Below are positions 1 to 7,896 of a DNA stretch of 32,000 nt, piece by piece (position 1 is the first letter of the stretch; the number at the start of each line of letters is the position of its first letter). The translations under genes were made by a program, and so were the position numbers. The notes below the pieces were generated by a model, which made no database searches, had not been told where the DNA came from, and worked only from the letters and a program-made list of their open reading frames with translations. The stretch covers positions 1 to 32,000 of the forward strand of contig CAZECW010000062.1 of NCBI GenBank assembly GCA_964510585.1, read 5' to 3'. Source of the DNA: an uncultured archaeon. Lineage in GTDB: Archaea; Asgardarchaeota; Jordiarchaeia; Jordiarchaeales; Jordiarchaeaceae.

Positions 1-137
1 TGCGTCTTGTTTAGCCTCCTTGAGCCCAAGCCAAACCCTTCAGCTACCAACAACTATTTATATACCATACTTTCAAATAAACTTTCTGGCGATTCATCCC
101 CACGACTTGAAGTCGGGGGCTTTCTCGCCAAGGTTTT
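1..137 (-). mobile_element. Partial non-autonomous IS200/IS605-family element (PATE-like), left end; truncated by window start
   Basis: Reverse complement of 1-137 matches 12381-12516 with 8 substitutions and 1 indel. Bulged left-end hairpin at 98-119, AAAG guide at 120-123 (minus strand), TTAC cleavage tetranucleotide at 138-141 (minus strand). Confidence 0.85.
57..64. promoter_or_regulatory. TATA-box-like motif inside the element (TTTATATA on +, TATATAAA on -)
   Basis: Matches the archaeal TATA consensus in either orientation; direction and activity unknown. Confidence 0.3.
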
Positions 138-168
138 GTAAGAATACAAAAGAAGAGGTAAGGGAAAA

Positions 169-701: not shown

Positions 702-2447
702 ATGGAGTATAGATTTAGAGGAGGCTTTGAGACGAAGAATTTTGAGGTTGCCAATATTCTTAAGGAGATAGCTGTTTTTCTGGAAATGGATGATGTGCAG
801 TTTAAACCTAGGGCTTATGAGAAGGCTGCCAGATCCATTGAGGCTTTGCAGGAGGATGTGGAGGAAATCTACAGAAAGGGTGGAATCAAGGCTCTGATGG
901 AAATTCCCGGAGTTGGTAAGAGTATTGCTGAAAAAATAGAGGAACTGATAAAAACGGGAAAGATTAAGTACCATGAGGAGTTAAAGGAGAAGGTTCCAGT
1001 AGATTTGGAAAGCCTCTCCGGGATAGAGGGTCTGGGGCCCAAAACTATCAAGACCCTCTGGCAAGAATTGAAAATCAGGAACATAGAGGACTTGGAAAAG
1101 GCCGCCTTGGCCCACAAGATTTGTAAGTTGCCCGGTTTTAAGGAGAAGACTGAGCAGAATATTTTGAAGGGAATAGAATTCGCCAAGAGGAGTAAGGGAA
1201 GATACATTTTAGGTTTCACCCTGCCCCTAATTCGGGACATAGAAAATAGATTGAAGTCGTTGCCGGAGACAAAGAGGGTTGTAGTGTCCGGCTCTGTGAG
1301 GAGAATGAAGGAGACAATTGGCGACGCCGACTTCCTCGTAATATCGGATAATCCAAAAAGGGTGATGGATTATTTTGTTTCCATGCCAGAAGTCATAGAT
1401 ATTATTGGGAAGGGCGAAACCAAATCCTCGGTGAAACTGAAAACGGGTATGGATGTTGATGTTAGGGTGGTGCCCGAAGAAAGCTTCGGAGCAGCTTTGC
1501 AATATTTTACGGGTAGCAAAGACCACAATGTTGCCCTCAGAAGAATTGCGCAGGAAAAGGGGTGGAAACTAAGCGAGTACGGCTTGTTTGAAGGAGAAAA
1601 ACAGATAGCTGGCAGAACGGAGGAAGAAATCTATGAGAAACTGGGACTACAATGGATTCCCCCAGAGTTGAGGGAGAACACTGGAGAAATAGAGGCTGCA
1701 AAGAAAAACAAACTCCCAAAACTGATTGGCTACAATGATTTGAAGGGCGATTTACAAGTCCACTCCAATTGGACTGATGGAGTCAACACCATAAGGGAGA
1801 TGGCTGAGGAAGCCAAGAAACTGGGACTGGAATACATTGTGATATCCGACCACTCCAAATCCCTAGCCATGACCGGCGGGCTAGACGAAAAAATGTTGTT
1901 AAAACAGGGAAAAGAGATAGACGCAATAAATGAGCAGATTTCTGGAATAAGGATTCTTAAAGGCGTAGAATTAAACATTTTAAAGGATGGAAGCCTAGAC
2001 ATATCAGACGAAACCCTGGAAGAATTGGATGTGGTCAGCGCCGGAATACACTCCCAATTTAAACAAAGTAGGGAAGAAATGACCAGCAGAGTCCTGAAGG
2101 CAATTGAGAACCCAAACCTAGACATTCTCTGCCACCCCACCACCAGAGAAATACAGAAAAGAGACCCCGTTCCACTAGACATGGACAAAATAATTGAAGC
2201 CGCAAAGGACAATGGAACAATTCTAGACATAGACTCCTACCCCGACAGATTAGACCTAAAAGACGAATACATAAGGAAAGCAGTGGAGGTAGGAGCAAAA
2301 CTCGGAATAAGCTCAGACGCACACAGCAAACCCCACCTACACTACCTAGAGCTGGGAATCGCCCAAGCAAGAAGAGGCTGGGCCACAGCCAAAGACATCG
2401 TCAACACCAGAAAAATAGATGAATTCCTAAAGCTGATAAAGTCTTGA
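702..2447 (+). CDS. polX: DNA polymerase X family with C-terminal PHP domain
   Basis: N-terminal 8-kDa/HhH region (IPGVGKSIAEKI, IEGLGPKT), GSVRRMKETIGDAD catalytic motif, third Asp in DVDVRVV, YFTGSKDHN, PHP motifs DLQVHSNWTDG, ISDHS, HPT, SSDAH. Confidence 0.95.
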   Translation: MEYRFRGGFETKNFEVANILKEIAVFLEMDDVQFKPRAYEKAARSIEALQEDVEEIYRKGGIKALMEIPGVGKSIAEKIEELIKTGKIKYHEELKEKVPVDLESLSGIEGLGPKTIKTLWQELKIRNIEDLEKAALAHKICKLPGFKEKTEQNILKGIEFAKRSKGRYILGFTLPLIRDIENRLKSLPETKRVVVSGSVRRMKETIGDADFLVISDNPKRVMDYFVSMPEVIDIIGKGETKSSVKLKTGMDVDVRVVPEESFGAALQYFTGSKDHNVALRRIAQEKGWKLSEYGLFEGEKQIAGRTEEEIYEKLGLQWIPPELRENTGEIEAAKKNKLPKLIGYNDLKGDLQVHSNWTDGVNTIREMAEEAKKLGLEYIVISDHSKSLAMTGGLDEKMLLKQGKEIDAINEQISGIRILKGVELNILKDGSLDISDETLEELDVVSAGIHSQFKQSREEMTSRVLKAIENPNLDILCHPTTREIQKRDPVPLDMDKIIEAAKDNGTILDIDSYPDRLDLKDEYIRKAVEVGAKLGISSDAHSKPHLHYLELGIAQARRGWATAKDIVNTRKIDEFLKLIKS

Positions 2448-2817
2448 ATAAAAACAGCACTAAAACCGTACTTGTCCAAATTGAAGCATCGAGTAACAAA
2501 AACTATACAGCTACGCTAATAGTTGAGTGATGGAGTTAAATGGCTTCCACCCAAAATTGGCATGACCTAAACACCGTTTTTACTTTTTTTATAAATACTC
2601 ATTATTTTTTTCCATAAGGTGGGGACGCTTCATTTTTCTAGTAAAAGTTTTGTTCTAACGCCTGTTGGAGCAAAAGTATTAGGGCGAGTTGTTGCTAAAG
2701 GTTAAGATGTATTTTATAGAATTTTATTTATCTAGATGGAATCGGCCAGTACATCCCGAGTTTTAAAAAAATTAAATGTATGAATTAGAAAAAAAGGAGA
2801 ATTTTGATGGTTTGGTT

Positions 2818-4080
2818 TTATTTTGCTATCCATAGGTCGCGTGGGAAGTCTTTGGTTAGGATTTCGGGTCCGTGTTTTGTCACTAGTACAATGTCTTCGG
2901 GCATTGCTCCTACCAGCCGCATTTCTAGGTCGAAGGCTCCCACCTCGACGCAGAACACCATATTTTCCTTTACTATGGTGGGATTGTCGGGTATAATCCA
3001 TGGTGGTTCGTGATTTGATAAACCCATACCATGTCCTACGAAGTTTATTATGTGCATCTGCATGGGGTCCTTTTTCTTTAACGCTTCAACTGAGGCTTTG
3101 TGAGCGTCTCCCACTTTTGCCCCTGGTACCAGAGCATCTATGGCTGCCTGTTCACCTTCTATGGCAAGTTTGCTTAGTTCCACCTGTTTTTGTGGCGGGT
3201 CACCCACATAGAAGGTTCTTTGCCAATCCATCTGGTAGCCTTTATAGGTGGGTCCGCAGTCACTAATCCCCATGTCTCCCTCCTTTATGATGCGGTCTAC
3301 AGGTCCTGTTATCCACCTGAATACCCCTCCTTCCTCCTCAGCATTGCTTGTCCAACATAGCCAGGTTGAACAGTTTGGGGACTCAAGGAGGTCTTGTTCG
3401 GCGCAGGCTTTCCAGAAGGCTCTGTGTACATCCAGCTCGTTTACTCCGGGTTTGATGGTTTCAAAGGCCGCTCTAAGAACTTTTACTGACCTCTTGCATC
3501 CTTCACGGATGATTCCGATTTCGTATGGTGTTTTTTGGCTCCTCTGCTCCCAAATGACTGGGTCTGCAGCTACTATTTTTGCGTGTGGCAATCTTTTGTT
3601 TAGGAGGTCGTATTCTTCAAATGAAAGGTAGGTGTCTATGTCGGGTCCCTTTTCGATACCAATTGTTCCTCTATCCAGTTTCAGTTCTTTTAGGGTGTCT
3701 AGCAGTAATTGCCAAAACTCGCTTGGTACCCTTTGCCCAGTTAGAAAGGAAGCCAATAATTGTCCGCCCTCAGTTTCACTCCAGAAGCGGTTTTCCTCAA
3801 CATAGGTTGTTAGTAGATTCTGCCAGTAGAATGCTCCATGACAAACATTTATGGGATTGTGGTCTCTTGGTATAATCATGCAGGAGCGCCACACCCAGTT
3901 GTGCATCTGTGCCACATCAGTCCATCCGCCATAGTATCGCCAGTTTATGGGCGAGAATAGGATCATAGCATCCATATTGTGCTTGGCTAATAGTTCTCTG
4001 GCTGTTTGGATACGTTTCTTATATTCTGAGTAGGGCATTGTCTCCCATTTTTTCTTAGCTACCTCTCCCTTTTCAACCAT
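2818..4080 (-). CDS. Xaa-Pro peptidase family (M24B) with N-terminal creatinase domain
   Basis: Metal ligands present: DCGPTYKGYQMD (two Asp), GHGMGLSNHE, CVEVG, PEDIVLVT. Start placed at ATG 4080 behind GGTGAG; the ORF track extends to 4143. Confidence 0.9.
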   Translation of the reverse strand: MVEKGEVAKKKWETMPYSEYKKRIQTARELLAKHNMDAMILFSPINWRYYGGWTDVAQMHNWVWRSCMIIPRDHNPINVCHGAFYWQNLLTTYVEENRFWSETEGGQLLASFLTGQRVPSEFWQLLLDTLKELKLDRGTIGIEKGPDIDTYLSFEEYDLLNKRLPHAKIVAADPVIWEQRSQKTPYEIGIIREGCKRSVKVLRAAFETIKPGVNELDVHRAFWKACAEQDLLESPNCSTWLCWTSNAEEEGGVFRWITGPVDRIIKEGDMGISDCGPTYKGYQMDWQRTFYVGDPPQKQVELSKLAIEGEQAAIDALVPGAKVGDAHKASVEALKKKDPMQMHIINFVGHGMGLSNHEPPWIIPDNPTIVKENMVFCVEVGAFDLEMRLVGAMPEDIVLVTKHGPEILTKDFPRDLWIAK

Positions 4081-4479
4081 TTTAAACTCACCCATTTTTT
4101 GCCTATTCTCTGATAAGAAATGTCTAAAAAAGTCTAAAACCAATCGTTATTTCATACTTTTAATGGATATACAAGTTAAATTAACTTTTGCTAATTGTGG
4201 CTATTTAAATCCAAGCGCCCAATATTACAATCAGTGATTTATAAACAATGAAATAGCACTTGCTTTAAGAATTATCTAAAACCTTTATTTTTTTAAATAA
4301 ATCCAATTTTTAAGAAGGATGATAGAAAAATTTTTTACATTATTTTTATATAAACTTATACAAAAAAGTGATAAAATTCGTAGCTTAACGATAGAATAGT
4401 TGATTATCAGTAAAGTGAAAACATATCCGAGGGCTTTGTAAACGATCTACCAAACGAAAAATTTTTGGGTAAGGCAACA

Positions 4480-5871
4480 ATGTTAAGCAAAAAGTTGAGT
4501 TGGAAATTCAAAATAAGAAGTAGGAAACAATTATTGGATTTAACGCTATTAGCTTTGATTTTCATTTCCTCACTCATAATAATCCAGTTATTAACGATTC
4601 CTTGGGGAAATCCGTATGCTGGACAAGGACTATTTAAAAGCGGTCAGAGCATAGCTAACTACCCTAAAGATAGTATATACCTTTATCCGTTCAGTAATGA
4701 TAGTGATGTGGATAATAGTAAAAGTATCGGTTCCCACTCCTATTTTCCGAATTTAGCTATAGCAGGGGAATACGATACAATTAAAGAGAGCAACACCGCG
4801 AATGCAAATATACAAATACTAGTGCCAAACGGACCGGGAGACTATACGGAACTTTATGCTTATAGTTCAATCGGCTTAAAACATAATTGGGAATGCACCT
4901 ATTCTTCTGATGGTGATGCATCCTATGTTTATTATAATAATACTGATTGGAAAGGGGACCTATACAACATTACAGACCCTAATCCAACTGGAAGCGGAAT
5001 TATAAACTGGGTTAGAGTTGGCATAAGTGTTATAACTATTCGTTCATCCCCCAATCTAAAGGGAGATGCAGAAATTCGGGTTCTTGCTGGATCAACATTG
5101 TTTAATTATTCTGGCTACAATAACATTCCAACATCTTATACAAATTACTCAGTACTTCTTGAGGAAAGTCCAAGTACAGATGATTCTTGGACGTGGGATG
5201 AATTGGAAAACCTACAGGTAGGAGTTGCTCTTAGGCTGAGGAATACTCCTCAGAGTGGTGATATGGTAAGGTGTACTTTTGTTTGGGTAGAAGTAAATTA
5301 TACTATACCTAATTATGAGTTGGATTTAGAGCTTCAATGGAGTGGCGTTCCTGCGACCACATCTAATGGTGATTTATGCATAAAAACAGCAGTTTTTTCA
5401 GGTAATGAGAAACTTAGTGTAGAGTACTGGAATGGCGGTAATTGGATTAAAGCTATTGATAATTTGGTAGAGAATCAGTGGAATAACGTTTCATTGAATA
5501 TCAATGATTCAGTCTTAACTATCCGATTCAAAGGATTGAATGAAACTCAGGATACAATCCAAGACTATTGGGAAATTGATTTATGCCTCATATCTATAAA
5601 TTATAATCCACAAGCTATTTATCTAGAACAATTATTTTTACTGCTTTTCGGTAGCTTTTTGTTTGGGGGTGGAAGTCAGCCTAGTTTACCATTTACTGCT
5701 TTTATTGTGGGTTCTGCTGCTTTAGTTTCCATTTTAGGTCTCGTTGTAAGGTATTCTTACTTTTCGGGAGAGGCGGTTTCTTTTAGGAGAAAGCGAATAA
5801 GGCAGTTGGAGGAGGCTAGGAAGAGGGTTCAGAGAGCTTTGGAGGATGTTGGCGATGGAGGAACGTCTTAA
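4480..5871 (+). CDS. Membrane-anchored protein with large predicted extracellular, beta-rich glycosylated domain and basic C-terminal tail
   Basis: Hydrophobic N-terminal segment (LTLLALIFISSLIIIQLL), 9 N-x-S/T sequons, one or two C-terminal hydrophobic segments, tail RRKRIRQLEEARKR. ATG at 4480 (alternative TTG at 4465). Confidence 0.8.
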   Translation: MLSKKLSWKFKIRSRKQLLDLTLLALIFISSLIIIQLLTIPWGNPYAGQGLFKSGQSIANYPKDSIYLYPFSNDSDVDNSKSIGSHSYFPNLAIAGEYDTIKESNTANANIQILVPNGPGDYTELYAYSSIGLKHNWECTYSSDGDASYVYYNNTDWKGDLYNITDPNPTGSGIINWVRVGISVITIRSSPNLKGDAEIRVLAGSTLFNYSGYNNIPTSYTNYSVLLEESPSTDDSWTWDELENLQVGVALRLRNTPQSGDMVRCTFVWVEVNYTIPNYELDLELQWSGVPATTSNGDLCIKTAVFSGNEKLSVEYWNGGNWIKAIDNLVENQWNNVSLNINDSVLTIRFKGLNETQDTIQDYWEIDLCLISINYNPQAIYLEQLFLLLFGSFLFGGGSQPSLPFTAFIVGSAALVSILGLVVRYSYFSGEAVSFRRKRIRQLEEARKRVQRALEDVGDGGTS

Positions 5872-6907
5872 GATATTGGTGATGGGGCCTACTGGTGCTG
5901 GGAAAACGTCCATAATTAAGCAAGTGATGTATGGATTGGAGTCAAGGGAACTTGAACATATGGAGCCAACTATGCTGGTCAGGGTTCATCCAGATCATAA
6001 ACACGGGAATTATATTTGCAAATTTTTCGACACTGGGGGGCAAGAAAGAATGTTTGAGGAATATTACCGTCCCGAGAGGGAGGAATTTATTTTCAGCAAA
6101 GTGGATATTTTCATTTATGTCGTTGATTCGGGTGATGTTAATAGGATTCGTCTTGCGAGGAAGGAATTTTGGAGGTCTATTAGTAGGGTTACCAAGTATT
6201 CTCCTCAAGCTTTACCTGTGGTTTTTGCACATAAACAGGATTTGAGGGTTCACTTACCGCCGGATGAAGTAAGGAACGTTCTAATTGGACCAAGTGAAAT
6301 AATGTACCAAGAGTTTCTTCCTAGAGACCCTTGGGAAAGAAGACAGGTAGAGAAGATGGTGAAGAGAATCAATGTTTATGGCACTTCAATTATGGATCCT
6401 GTTAGTGTTACTGGTGGGCGTGTTGATTACTGGAAGAGGGCTGACGAAGCCGTTATTGAGGTTATAGAGGAGTATAAGAGAGTTATCAAAGAGGGTATCG
6501 TGCTGGGCGTAGAAGCAAGAAAATTGTACCCTGAAGAATTTTTGAATAGTCTTACATCTTTGCTTAGGGATTTAGACCGTATCTCAGGTTTTGTGGGAAG
6601 TGTGGTTTTGGATAAAACGAATAATTTGGTTATTGCGACAACTCTTAGAGAGAGTGAACTTAAGGATACAGTGTTGGGAAATATAGTAGCTCATGCTGCT
6701 TTAATTCTGGAGGAAAGCGAAGGAGTTTTTAAAAAGGCTGTTATTCTTAGGTTGGAAGGTTTATTAATTGTCCTTAAAAGTGTAAACAAAGAAGTAGCCT
6801 TTTTAACTGCATTTCCAGACAGTAAACTGATTGATGAGGAAGAATTACGTATATTGGTTGAAAAATTCGTGGAAAAAATTTCGGATCTTTTTAAAAATGT
6901 AAGTTAA
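5855..6907 (+). CDS. Rag/Gtr1-like small GTPase with C-terminal roadblock domain
   Basis: G1 GPTGAGKT, G2 Thr (EPTM), G3 DTGGQ, G4 HKQD, G5 TSIMD, plus Rag-like segments IFSKVDIFIYVVD and KYSP. The last ~125 aa follow the roadblock alpha-beta-beta-alpha-beta-beta-beta-alpha pattern. ATG 5855 lies 9 nt after GGAGG (alternative ATG 5846). Confidence 0.88.
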   Translation: MEERLKILVMGPTGAGKTSIIKQVMYGLESRELEHMEPTMLVRVHPDHKHGNYICKFFDTGGQERMFEEYYRPEREEFIFSKVDIFIYVVDSGDVNRIRLARKEFWRSISRVTKYSPQALPVVFAHKQDLRVHLPPDEVRNVLIGPSEIMYQEFLPRDPWERRQVEKMVKRINVYGTSIMDPVSVTGGRVDYWKRADEAVIEVIEEYKRVIKEGIVLGVEARKLYPEEFLNSLTSLLRDLDRISGFVGSVVLDKTNNLVIATTLRESELKDTVLGNIVAHAALILEESEGVFKKAVILRLEGLLIVLKSVNKEVAFLTAFPDSKLIDEEELRILVEKFVEKISDLFKNVS

Positions 6908-6921
6908 TTCGGGGGAAACGG

Positions 6922-7896
6922 ATGCCGAAGGGAGTTTTCATCACCTATTTTGACGCTGTTGAGGGTGTTGTGCTAAAACCAGAATACGTGTATATAAGAG
7001 ATGGGACACAGGTAACGGAGGGTTTGGCTCAACAGTTATACTTTGCACATTCTACTGGGGAGACCAGAGATTATCTTGAAATGAAGGTGGGAAACATTAA
7101 AGTTGCGAGCTACTACTCTGGAATGGTTCCCAAGTCTCGCAATCAGATATGTATAGCGCTTCTCCTTGAAGAGAAGGAGATGGGAGTAGCCTATAAGGCG
7201 TTTCTTAAAACTAAGGCCGCAGAAATAGTTAAACTCTTGGATAATGACCGTGAAATCAAAATCCAAGAAGTCTACAAAGAACTGGAGAAAAGGGAAAAAA
7301 TAGTGGACAGGACGCACCTCATGATAAGGTTATTAGCAGACGAGGAAACTTGGAAGAGCCTAGCCGCACTCAGAGAAGGGAAAACGGTGGACACATCAAT
7401 CTTGTCCCATCTAAAAAGGTTAGAACTTGTATCTCAAAAGGGTGATGGAGAGAAAAAGTTTGAAGTTATGAAAATAAGGGCCTTCAAAGCCCCCTCAGAC
7501 TCCATAATAGAAGCTTTAGAAAAGGGAAAAGTGCCTCCAAACATAAGGTCTGAGGTTGGCAAAGAAGTGATAAACACAATAGATGAACTCCGGACAAAAA
7601 TAAAACAGGAAATAGAAGAGAGACCAATAGAAATTCTTGAACCCCTAGTGAACTCAGTAAACTACCAAATAGTTAAAATTCTTGAAGAGGAAGGAATAAC
7701 CTCAATAAAAAACCTGGCAAAAAGAATAGGGGTTGAGGAGGAAACCATCCTGTACCACATAGAACACCTAAAAAACAGTAGGCTCGCAGACTACGCACAA
7801 GAATACGCCTACCCGCTACTAAAAGTAACAATAGAAACAAAACCCGAGGAAAAAACCTTCGCCAGAAGAATAAAAAATTTGCTCAAAAAACGCTAG
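6922..7896 (+). CDS. Longin/uDENN-like domain plus winged-helix domains (NPRL2-like architecture)
   Basis: N-terminal GVFITYFDAVEG...KVASYYSG...ICIALLLE longin pattern; C-terminal wHTH (YQIVKILEEEGITSIKNLAKRIGVEEETILYHIEHL); 14 nt downstream of the GTPase with a GGGGGA ribosome-binding motif. Confidence 0.7.
   Translation: MPKGVFITYFDAVEGVVLKPEYVYIRDGTQVTEGLAQQLYFAHSTGETRDYLEMKVGNIKVASYYSGMVPKSRNQICIALLLEEKEMGVAYKAFLKTKAAEIVKLLDNDREIKIQEVYKELEKREKIVDRTHLMIRLLADEETWKSLAALREGKTVDTSILSHLKRLELVSQKGDGEKKFEVMKIRAFKAPSDSIIEALEKGKVPPNIRSEVGKEVINTIDELRTKIKQEIEERPIEILEPLVNSVNYQIVKILEEEGITSIKNLAKRIGVEEETILYHIEHLKNSRLADYAQEYAYPLLKVTIETKPEEKTFARRIKNLLKKR

What the first reader, a model, noticed from the sequence alone, without database searches (positions are those of the whole stretch)
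6922..7896. Longin protein carries an Arg in register with the NPRL2 Arg78 GAP finger
Against human NPRL2 as I recall it, F10/G15 (YFDAVEG) match F15/G20 (EFHPTLG), and S72-R73-N74 (codon CGC at 7138-7140) match S77-R78-N79 at the same +5 offset. The Arg sits in the loop before the last longin strand, followed by a hydrophobic strand and helix as in NPRL2. NPRL2 also has downstream winged-helix domains. Arg78 is the established catalytic finger of GATOR1 toward RagA, and FLCN uses an equivalent longin Arg toward RagC. Being encoded directly after a Rag-like GTPase, this protein is a strong candidate for an archaeal Rag GAP. Caveats: overall identity is low, the reference is from memory, and a 3-residue match can be chance.
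Basis: partly seen in the sequence, partly recalled or inferred. Interest (0 to 1): 0.9.

Follow-up and report, generated by a model that had tools for sequence, protein, structure and literature searches.

The report
Asgard NPRL2-like longin beside Rag GTPase
This Asgard archaeal gene encodes a longin plus winged-helix protein that resembles the eukaryotic Rag regulator NPRL2 and always follows a Rag-like GTPase gene, but the arginine proposed as its catalytic finger is replaced by serine or histidine in sister species, so it is very unlikely to be one.

Summary
I checked the NPRL2 residues recalled from memory against PDB 6ces_N, and they are correct. An AF2 model (pLDDT 86) shows a longin fold with R73 in the loop before the last strand, followed by two winged-helix domains. 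NPRL2/Npr2 chains are the top structural matches, but only marginally above other longins.

The gene is the last of a conserved three-gene cassette in Freyarchaeia/Jordarchaeia: membrane protein, RagA/Gtr1-like GTPase, longin-wH protein.

In Rag-linked orthologs, position 73 is R, S or H. A 17-member tree needs at least 5 changes there, while its neighbours K71, S72 and Q75 are invariant and N74 nearly so. The sequence match to NPRL2 is no better than shuffled controls.

The motifs conserved across the family are [W/F]-D-x3-G, SYY and LxLxxxE.

The most likely reading is a GTPase-binding longin partner of the adjacent Rag-like GTPase, acting as regulator or effector, not an R73-finger GAP.

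NPRL2-like Asgard longins are already published. This scan has also found similar Rag-longin pairs in other Asgard genomes.

The parts
6922..7896 (+). Gene for the 324-aa longin + wH + wH protein (P0001)
   Evidence: ORF and translation. There are 16 homologs at 59-99% identity, the named ones from Freyarchaeota/Jordarchaeia. AF2 model pLDDT 86.
6922..7305 (+). Longin domain, residues 1-128 (b-b-a-b-b-b-a-a)
   Evidence: AF2 secondary structure. VIA-align gives NPRL2 Z 10-11.6, a Lokiarchaeal longin (8yqg) Z 11.3 and Ykt6 Z 10.7. A profile of this domain hits 309 of 400 Asgard genomes.
6949..6969 (+). F10-D11-A-V-E-G15-V16, the b1-b2 turn motif. Superfamily consensus is W-D-x3-G.
   Evidence: D11 and G15 are invariant in A4 and nearly invariant in A2/A3. 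The spacing matches C9orf72 W33-D34...G38-P39 and NPRL2 F15...G20-P21. The Pro of the GP motif is Val here, and V16 is invariant within the family.
7117..7146 (+). b4-b5 loop, residues 66-75 (S-G-M-V-P-K71-S72-R73-N74-Q75)
   Evidence: AF2 model. P70, K71, S72 and Q75 are invariant and N74 nearly so, while position 73 is R/S/H.
7138..7140 (+). Codon CGC for R73, the proposed finger. It is variable among orthologs.
   Evidence: Sequence. R in 10, S in 5 and H in 2 of 17 family members. At least 5 changes are needed on the tree.
7132..7134 (+). Codon for K71, the only invariant basic residue of the loop
   Evidence: Invariant in A1. The aligned column holds Arg followed by Gly in several paralogous subfamilies (loops ..RGEPQ..RGRPQ). 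This resembles FLCN A-R164-G165.
7309..7494 (+). Winged-helix domain 1, residues 130-191, net basic
   Evidence: AF2 elements H130-138, H141-151, H158-166, E170-172, E180-191. Net charge +3 to +9 across the family.
7624..7842 (+). Winged-helix domain 2, residues 235-307, ArsR/SmtB-like fold, net acidic
   Evidence: Sub-threshold Pfam/NCBIfam HTH hits. Foldseek and VIA hits to ArsR/SmtB/CzrA, Z 6-6.7. The recognition helix and wing are net acidic in nearly all family members.
5855..6907 (+). Upstream Gtr1/RagA-like GTPase with a C-terminal roadblock-like domain (P0002). The ORF opens at 5846, but orthologs start at the Met at 5855.
   Evidence: Pfam Gtr1_RagA E 1.1e-20. Best PDB sequence hits are Gtr1 and RagA. 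Conserved G motifs GPxxAGKT, DTGGQE, HKQD and TSI. The C-terminal profile weakly hits Robl_LC7 chains, E 0.17 and 0.62.
4465..5871 (+). First gene of the cassette: 468-aa protein with no known family, hydrophobic segments near both ends and a basic C-terminal tail (P0003)
   Evidence: ORF. No Pfam or NCBIfam hit. A 459-488-aa gene, split in two in one case, precedes the GTPase in orthologous loci whose outer flanks differ.

Best explanation
The gene encodes a member of a large Asgard longin superfamily. Structurally it is closest to the NPRL2/FLCN/C9orf72/DENN-type longins, and here the longin domain is fused to two winged-helix domains. It is co-operonic with, and most likely binds, the RagA/Gtr1-like GTPase encoded immediately upstream. 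The first gene of the cassette, a membrane protein, probably anchors the system or feeds it a signal.

The likely mechanism, by inference from longin/roadblock platforms in general, is as follows. The conserved face of the longin domain docks on the GTPase in a nucleotide-dependent way. That face comprises the F/W-D-x3-G turn, the invariant helix a1 (residues 35-48), the S63-Y-Y strand and the P-K71-S-x-N-Q loop. The winged-helix domains then couple this to other partners, either proteins or DNA.

R73 occupies roughly the place of NPRL2 Arg78 but is a freely varying residue, not a catalytic finger. If the loop supplies a catalytic basic residue at all, invariant K71 is the better candidate.
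For: Shown:
- Longin + wH + wH fold, pLDDT 86.
- The top five Swiss-Prot AFDB matches are all NPRL2 (query 2-307 against NPRL2 7-238, E about 3e-4, probability 1.0).
- The top PDB Foldseek hits are SEA/GATOR1 chains. VIA gives NPRL2 Z 10-11.6.
- The membrane protein, Rag-like GTPase and longin-wH genes stay together with 14-16 nt gaps or overlaps in loci whose outer flanks differ.
- Linkage of this longin family to small GTPase genes recurs in distant branches. P0023 follows a Gtr1/RagA-like gene. The family-f2 paralog precedes a longin-GTPase fusion.
- Position 73 is R/S/H with at least 5 changes on the tree, while K71, S72 and Q75 are invariant and N74 nearly so.
- Invariant or near-invariant across the wider family: D11, G15, S63, Y64, L82, E86.

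Weak: complex prediction of P0002 + GTP + Mg with longin residues 1-128 gave 'weak support'.
- Score 0.37, best control 0.00.
- The mark was reached by 58 of 80 solved complexes and 2 of 110 mismatched pairs. At 0.60 or under it was reached by only 7 of those 80 and by both mismatches.
- The runs agree in at least 0% of their contacts, and the partner's pLDDT is at least 79.
- My own alignments were used and small molecules rode along, so the calibration holds only roughly.
- Solved Rag-GATOR1 complexes exist, so the pass may reflect likeness. No contacts were reported.
Against: - No binding, GAP, GEF or DNA-binding activity has been measured.
- The complex prediction is weak and gives no interface.
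- There is no sequence-level link to NPR2, NPR3 or folliculin Pfam families.
- The structural preference for NPRL2 over generic longins (Ykt6, Sec22b, sigma-adaptins, Z 10-10.7) is within about 1 Z unit.
- Taken alone, the C-terminal half matches ordinary ArsR-type wHTH regulators, not the NPRL2 C-terminal domain.
- Gene adjacency alone does not prove interaction.
Confidence: 0.6

Rival explanations
1. One reading: the protein is a Rag GAP that inserts R73 into the nucleotide pocket of the upstream GTPase, as NPRL2 Arg78 does for RagA.
For: - S72-R73-N74 matches NPRL2 S77-R78-N79 at the same +5 offset as F10/G15 against F15/G20.
- R73 lies in the b4-b5 loop.
- NPRL2 is the top structural match.
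- The gene is adjacent to a Rag-like GTPase.
- R is the commonest state, in 10 of 17 members, and is present in both deep clades.
Against: - R73 is S or H in 7 of 17 family members, including Rag-adjacent orthologs of sister species, while its neighbours are invariant or nearly so.
- At least 5 changes are needed on the tree, close to the shuffled mean of 6.3.
- The distant Rag-adjacent homolog has Asp at this position.
- Eukaryotic longin-GAP fingers are described as universally conserved (PMC12290439).
- The sequence match is not above shuffled controls.
- The Pro of the GP motif is Val.
Confidence: 0.07
2. The protein is a GAP, or a GAP subunit, for the Rag-like GTPase but uses another element. 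Candidates are invariant K71, which sits at the column that holds an Arg-Gly pair in paralogous Asgard longins and resembles FLCN R164-G165, or a finger supplied by a second longin partner in a heterodimer.
For: - K71 is invariant.
- Paralog loops read ..RGEPQ and ..RGRPQ at the same column. FLCN reads A-R164-G-F-Q.
- The genome has two more family members.
- Tandem longin gene pairs exist in other Asgard genomes.
- Asgard GP-motif longins with an Arg finger have been published as candidate GAPs (PMC12290439).
Against: - A Lys finger is not known for longin GAPs (my own knowledge).
- Some GTPase-linked paralogs have no basic residue in this loop at all (GGWDI--NYY).
- No second longin gene lies in the cassette.
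- No residue-level structural superposition or complex interface could be obtained.
Confidence: 0.2
3. The protein is a GTPase-controlled transcription regulator. The longin domain senses the nucleotide state of the Rag-like GTPase, and the winged-helix domains bind DNA.
For: - wH2 gives sub-threshold hits to AsnC, ArsR and HTH_24 models (E 4e-4 to 6e-3) and to NCBIfam ArsR/SmtB and Csa3 HTH.
- Structural matches to ArsR/SmtB/CzrA and to the tandem-wH factor PF0095.
- NCBI names one ortholog a wHTH transcriptional regulator.
- The top AFDB cluster hits are archaeal proteins auto-annotated as ArsR family.
- wH1 is net basic, +3 to +9.
Against: - The wH2 recognition helix and wing are net acidic in nearly all orthologs, which is unusual for a DNA-reading head.
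- All HTH hits are below the curated cut-offs.
- Winged helices in NPRL2/NPRL3 serve protein contacts (my own knowledge).
- No operator-like repeat was looked for or found.
Confidence: 0.13

Closest known systems
NPRL2 / Npr2, catalytic subunit of GATOR1/SEACIT (PDB 6CES, 7T3B, 8ADL)
   Same: - N-terminal longin domain followed by winged-helix-type domains.
- Best whole-protein structural match.
- Aromatic-x4-G turn at the same offset, and an S-R-N tripeptide before b5 in this particular sequence.
- Genomic partner is a RagA/Gtr1-like GTPase.
   Different: - The Arg is not conserved.
- The GP motif is G-V.
- No Pfam NPR2 signal.
- No NPRL3- or DEPDC5-like partner in the cassette.
- The C-terminal half alone looks like a generic ArsR-type wHTH.
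Asgard NPRL2-like / FLCN-SMCR8-type longins (Liu et al. 2020 preprint, doi 10.1101/2020.10.19.343400; Traffic 2025, PMC12290439)
   Same: - An Asgard longin with structural similarity to eukaryotic GAP longins.
- It belongs to a superfamily present in 309 of 400 Asgard genomes sampled.
- It shares the W/F-D-x3-G turn.
   Different: - The published class is defined by the GP motif plus a conserved Arg finger. This family has G-V and no conserved Arg.
- This family is fused to two wH domains and sits in a conserved cassette with a RagA-like GTPase. Asgard GTPases are reported to be mostly not in operons with longins (PMC10933270).
C9orf72, the non-catalytic longin partner of SMCR8 in the CSW Arf GAP
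   Same: - W33-D34-x3-G38-P39 has the same spacing as the superfamily's W/F-D-x3-G.
- Paralogs read WDNKVGP and WDNEIGP.
- Like this family, C9orf72 has no arginine finger of its own; the paper assigns the finger to SMCR8 R147.
   Different: - C9orf72 carries a DENN module, not winged helices.
- The structural match is weaker than to NPRL2 (ranks 20 and 24).
MglB / Roadblock-LC7 and Ragulator platforms for small GTPases
   Same: The same alpha/beta platform superfold is also matched, Z about 9. This supports a role as a GTPase-binding platform without an Arg finger.
   Different: The topology here is longin (C-terminal extra helices), not roadblock. The protein is fused to wH domains.

Membership tests
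Longin-domain superfold | b-b-a-b-b-b-a-a topology of about 120-130 residues | tested here: met
   AF2 model, pLDDT 86, with the elements in that order. Z 9-11.6 to many solved longins.
Eukaryotic GAP-type longins (NPRL2, FLCN, SMCR8) | Conserved arginine finger in the loop before the last longin strand | tested here: not met
   Position 73 is R/S/H among Rag-linked orthologs, with at least 5 changes on the tree. No other Arg is conserved in the longin domain across the wider family.
Eukaryotic GAP-type longins (NPRL2, FLCN, SMCR8, C9orf72) | Gly-Pro motif at the b1-b2 turn (PMC12290439) | tested here: inconclusive
   G15 is invariant, but the next residue is an invariant Val in this family. 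Some paralogs do have GP.
NPRL2/NPR2 family (Pfam PF06218) | Sequence match to the NPR2 profile | tested here: not met
   No hit for P0001 at E up to 1. No NPR2 hit among the 18 longin domains at E up to 10. A genome-wide PF06218 search hits only an unrelated contig at E 0.06. Lead only: an Atlas cluster of Asgard longins has 19% of members with PF06218, score 0.82.
NPRL2/NPR2 family | Longin domain followed by NPRL2-type C-terminal (winged-helix) domains | tested here: inconclusive
   Whole-protein Foldseek alignments span query 2-307 against NPRL2 7-238 with probability 1.0 but TM 0.27. The C-terminal half alone finds ArsR-type wHTH proteins at Z 6-6.7, which is not discriminating.
GATOR1/FLCN-FNIP/CSW complexes | Heterodimer of two longin subunits | not tested
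   No second longin gene in the cassette. Two paralogs lie elsewhere in the genome. Dimerisation was not modelled.
GAP for a Rag-family GTPase | Stimulates GTP hydrolysis by the Rag-like GTPase | not testable with these tools
   Only gene adjacency and a weak complex score of 0.37 against 0.00 for the best control, with no interface given.
ArsR/SmtB-type wHTH transcription regulators | Profile match above the curated cut-off and a basic DNA-reading helix or wing | tested here: not met
   The best hits score 16-26 bits, all below their curated cut-offs. The recognition helix and wing of wH2 are net acidic in nearly all family members.

The most novel reading that the evidence does not exclude
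The three-gene cassette is a minimal, self-contained proto-Rag/GATOR switch. A membrane protein acts as sensor or anchor, a homodimeric RagA-like GTPase is the switch, and an NPRL2-like longin-wH protein regulates it without an arginine finger (for example through invariant K71 or by positioning the GTPase's own Gln). That protein then relays the state through its winged helices, possibly directly to DNA. If so, this would be an archaeal link between a Rag-type switch and gene expression that predates TORC1.
Probability: 0.15. Interest if true: 0.8.

Novelty: new member of a known kind. Interest (0 to 1): 0.4.

Why it matters
Asgard genomes hold many small GTPases and many longin/roadblock proteins, but which regulator acts on which GTPase is mostly unknown, because the genes are rarely linked (PMC10933270). 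Here a RagA/Gtr1-like GTPase and an NPRL2-like longin protein are kept together with a membrane protein across Freyarchaeia/Jordarchaeia. That gives a concrete pair to express and test.

The natural R/S/H variation at position 73 amounts to a ready-made mutant series. The negative result also matters: positional identity of a single Arg with NPRL2 Arg78 in one sequence is not evidence of a GAP finger. The conserved features of this family (W/F-D-x3-G, helix a1, K71) point elsewhere.

Tried and rejected
1. Sequence searches of the protein and of a longin-domain profile against PDB chains and Pfam found no NPRL2, FLCN or longin family. The relationship is visible only by fold.
2. A profile search with alignment A2 in the 5.8-billion-protein set added no new relatives.
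3. I hoped the complex prediction would show whether R73 or K71 reaches the nucleotide. It returned only weak support and no contacts, so the geometry is untested.
4. No tool returns residue-level structural alignments or coordinates, so R73 could not be superposed on NPRL2 R78. I used local alignments of PDB-verified NPRL2 fragments instead, and these were not significant.
5. The C-terminal half folded alone gave a poorer model (pLDDT 72.5) and only generic wHTH matches.
6. A profile of the GTPase's C-terminal domain gave only weak Roadblock/LC7 hits, E 0.17 and 0.62, and Pfam gave none. The roadblock assignment therefore rests on the predicted a-b-b-a-b-b-b-a pattern.
7. I looked by eye for covariation between position 73 and the GTPase P-loop across paired orthologs and found none.
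8. The supplementary sequences of PMC12290439 are not held, so the published Asgard 'Arg finger' column could not be mapped directly.
9. The ESM Atlas fold search could not be reached.
10. Atlas feature searches gave only sub-0.9 leads.

Full report
**Observation**

The ORF at 6922-7896 (+) encodes 324 residues.

I fished the true sequence out of PDB chain 6ces_N with two short fragments and confirmed F15, G20-P21 and S77-R78-N79. The +5 offset therefore holds at both sites.

At sequence level, however, the resemblance is not above chance. The best local alignment of NPRL2 64-94 to the longin domain is the SRN match, but it scores 17. Shuffled fragments reach that score in 1680 of 2000 trials, and for NPRL2 7-40 in 1762 of 2000.

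**Fold**

I built an AlphaFold2 model from 28 aligned relatives (pLDDT 86, pTM 0.74).
- It shows a canonical longin domain: strands 4-11, 15-25, 51-56, 59-65 and 76-82, and helices 33-45, 88-107 and 114-122.
- R73 lies in the 66-75 loop before the last strand.
- Next come a winged helix (130-191), a long helix (193-228), a second winged helix (235-307) and a basic C-terminal helix.

Structural searches gave these results:
- Foldseek against the PDB puts SEA/GATOR1 chains on top (E 2e-4 to 7e-3).
- In Swiss-Prot AFDB the first five hits are all NPRL2, aligned over query 2-307. DENND11, Npr2, NPRL3 and C9orf72 follow.
- VIA-align gives NPRL2 Z 10-11.6 (124 residues, rmsd about 3 A, model 1..134 against NPRL2 6..163). 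A Lokiarchaeal longin (8yqg) scores 11.3 and Ykt6, Sec22b and sigma-adaptins score 10-10.7. The preference for NPRL2 is real but slim.
- The C-terminal half folded alone finds only ArsR/SmtB-type winged helices at Z 6-6.7.
- No Pfam or NCBIfam longin, NPR2 or folliculin profile matches.

**Context**

The upstream gene (5855-6907) is a Gtr1/RagA-like GTPase. Its Pfam E-value is 1.1e-20, and the best PDB sequence hits are Gtr1 and RagA. Its conserved G motifs are GPxxAGKT, DTGGQE, HKQD and TSI. It has a C-terminal domain with a roadblock-like secondary-structure pattern, supported only by weak profile hits.

Before it lies a 468-aa protein of no known family with hydrophobic ends.

The three genes overlap or are 14-16 nt apart. 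They stay together in Freyarchaeota/Jordarchaeia contigs whose outer flanks differ, and the GTPase-longin pair sits side by side in four sister-species genomes of the genus.

More distant members of the longin-wH family are also linked to small GTPase genes:
- P0023 follows a Gtr1/RagA-like gene.
- The family-f2 paralog precedes a longin-GTPase fusion.

A functional tie between this longin family and small GTPases is therefore well supported by gene order.

A complex prediction of the GTPase (with GTP and Mg) and the longin domain gave only 'weak support':
- Score 0.37 against 0.00 for the best control.
- The mark was reached by 58 of 80 solved complexes and 2 of 110 mismatched pairs. At 0.60 or under it was reached by only 7 of those 80 and by both mismatches.
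- The runs agree in at least 0% of their contacts, and partner pLDDT is at least 79.
- My own alignments and riding ligands make the calibration rough.
- Similar complexes have been solved, so the score may come from likeness.
- No interface was reported. The position of R73 relative to the nucleotide could not be examined.

**The arginine**

- Among 17 family members (59-99% identity), position 73 is R in 10, S in 5 and H in 2. P70, K71, S72 and Q75 are invariant and N74 nearly so.
- The S73 proteins P0006 and P0009 sit in the same cassette right after the Rag-like gene.
- Among species genomes of the same genus, Rag-adjacent copies carry R (G000, G117), S (G118, G119) or H (G120). G121 also carries R, but its locus is too short to show the neighbour.
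- A maximum-likelihood tree needs at least 5 changes at this site, close to the shuffled expectation of 6.3.
- The distant Rag-adjacent homolog has Asp there.
- By contrast, the fingers of the eukaryotic longin GAPs are described as universally conserved (PMC12290439).

R73 is therefore a relaxed position, not a catalytic residue.

**What is conserved instead**

Across the wider superfamily, whose profile hits 309 of 400 Asgard genomes with more than 1,400 matches, the constant features are:
- [W/F]-D-x3-G at the b1-b2 turn;
- S-Y-Y at the end of b4;
- L-x-L-x3-E after b5.

The turn motif has the spacing of C9orf72 W33-D34...G38-P39, and paralogs read WDNKVGP or WDNEIGP. Within the window's family, helix a1 and the following loop (residues 35-48) are 100% invariant.

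The b4-b5 loop varies in length and content between subfamilies. Several carry Arg-Gly at the column of K71 (..RGEPQ..RGRPQ), which resembles FLCN A-R164-G. Others have a basic residue one or two columns away. Some GTPase-linked paralogs have none. If this loop supplies a catalytic basic group in the window's protein, invariant K71 is the better candidate. That is inference only.

**Mechanism and rivals**

I commit to a GTPase-binding longin partner of the adjacent Rag-like GTPase, acting as regulator or effector and NPRL2-like in fold and architecture (confidence 0.6).

The rivals are:
- The R73-finger GAP (0.07).
- A GAP that uses K71 or a finger from a second longin subunit (0.2).
- A GTPase-controlled transcription regulator (0.13). 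Sub-threshold ArsR-type HTH hits and a basic wH1 support it. Acidic recognition elements in wH2 weaken it.

**Novelty**

NPRL2-like longins in Asgard archaea were reported by Liu et al. (preprint doi 10.1101/2020.10.19.343400). Asgard longins with the GP motif and an Arg finger were proposed as possible GAPs for Asgard Rag/Arf GTPases in Traffic 2025 (PMC12290439).

Earlier notes of this scan describe Rag-like GTPase plus NPRL2/folliculin-like longin pairs, and a 378-aa longin plus double winged-helix protein, in other Asgard genomes. I did not re-test those.

This locus is thus a new member of a known kind. Its useful points are the conserved three-gene cassette with a RagA-like GTPase and the natural R/S/H series at position 73.

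Noticed in passing
L056 (G004:C1:178000-186000), minus strand: 2848-3936 and 4196-4678: Two longin genes lie in tandem in family-f4 Asgard genomes. One is a 160-aa stand-alone longin with WDDATGP and loop AVRGRPQ, an FLCN-like Arg-Gly. Directly downstream is a 362-aa longin-wH-wH protein with loop VRKGEAQ. They may form a heterodimer like NPRL2-NPRL3 or SMCR8-C9orf72.
   Followed up: partly
L055 (G115:C2:286000-294000): 2925-4115 and 4145-4999: A longin-wH paralog whose b4-b5 loop is shortened and has no basic residue (GGWDI--NYY) sits directly upstream of a 284-aa protein. That protein joins an N-terminal longin/roadblock-like region to a small GTPase domain (GFSGVGKTT, WDLAGQE, NKQD).
   Followed up: partly
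L012 (G000:C117:3203-6544) ORF 1366-2901; L013 (G000:C139:27986-31333) ORFs 1483-1884 (-) and 2286-2918 (+): The window's own genome has two more members of this longin family. One has WDNKVGP and is fused to a Cys-rich zinc-ribbon-like region and a further C-terminal domain. The other is a 133-aa stand-alone longin, next to a 210-aa ORF that looks like another longin plus wHTH.
   Followed up: partly
L008 (P0023 locus), L007 (P0021 locus), L009 (P0025 locus, Odinarchaeal genome CP091871): Distant relatives of the longin-wH protein are flanked by giant ORFs (3138 and 1778 aa; 1602 and 1469 aa; 1552 aa) with no Pfam families on record.
   Followed up: no
L057-L076 (20 stand-alone longins of about 125-145 aa from other Asgard genomes): These very widespread small longins share RWDNEIGP, close to C9orf72 YWDNILGP, and an ALLLRR motif right after b5. 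They have no Arg in the b4-b5 loop.
   Followed up: partly
window 4465-5871 (+): This is the first gene of the cassette. It has an N-terminal hydrophobic segment, a large Asn/Ser/Thr-rich middle part, two C-terminal hydrophobic segments and a basic helical tail. No family was found in Pfam or NCBIfam, and the Atlas nearest clusters are unnamed Asgard proteins (scores 0.81-0.84). In one ortholog contig (L001) it is called as two genes of 169 and 301 aa.
   Followed up: partly
window 5846-5871: The GTPase ORF opens at ATG 5846, but orthologs begin at the Met corresponding to 5855 (MERLKIL...). Either start overlaps the stop of the upstream membrane-protein gene, which suggests translational coupling.
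   Followed up: partly
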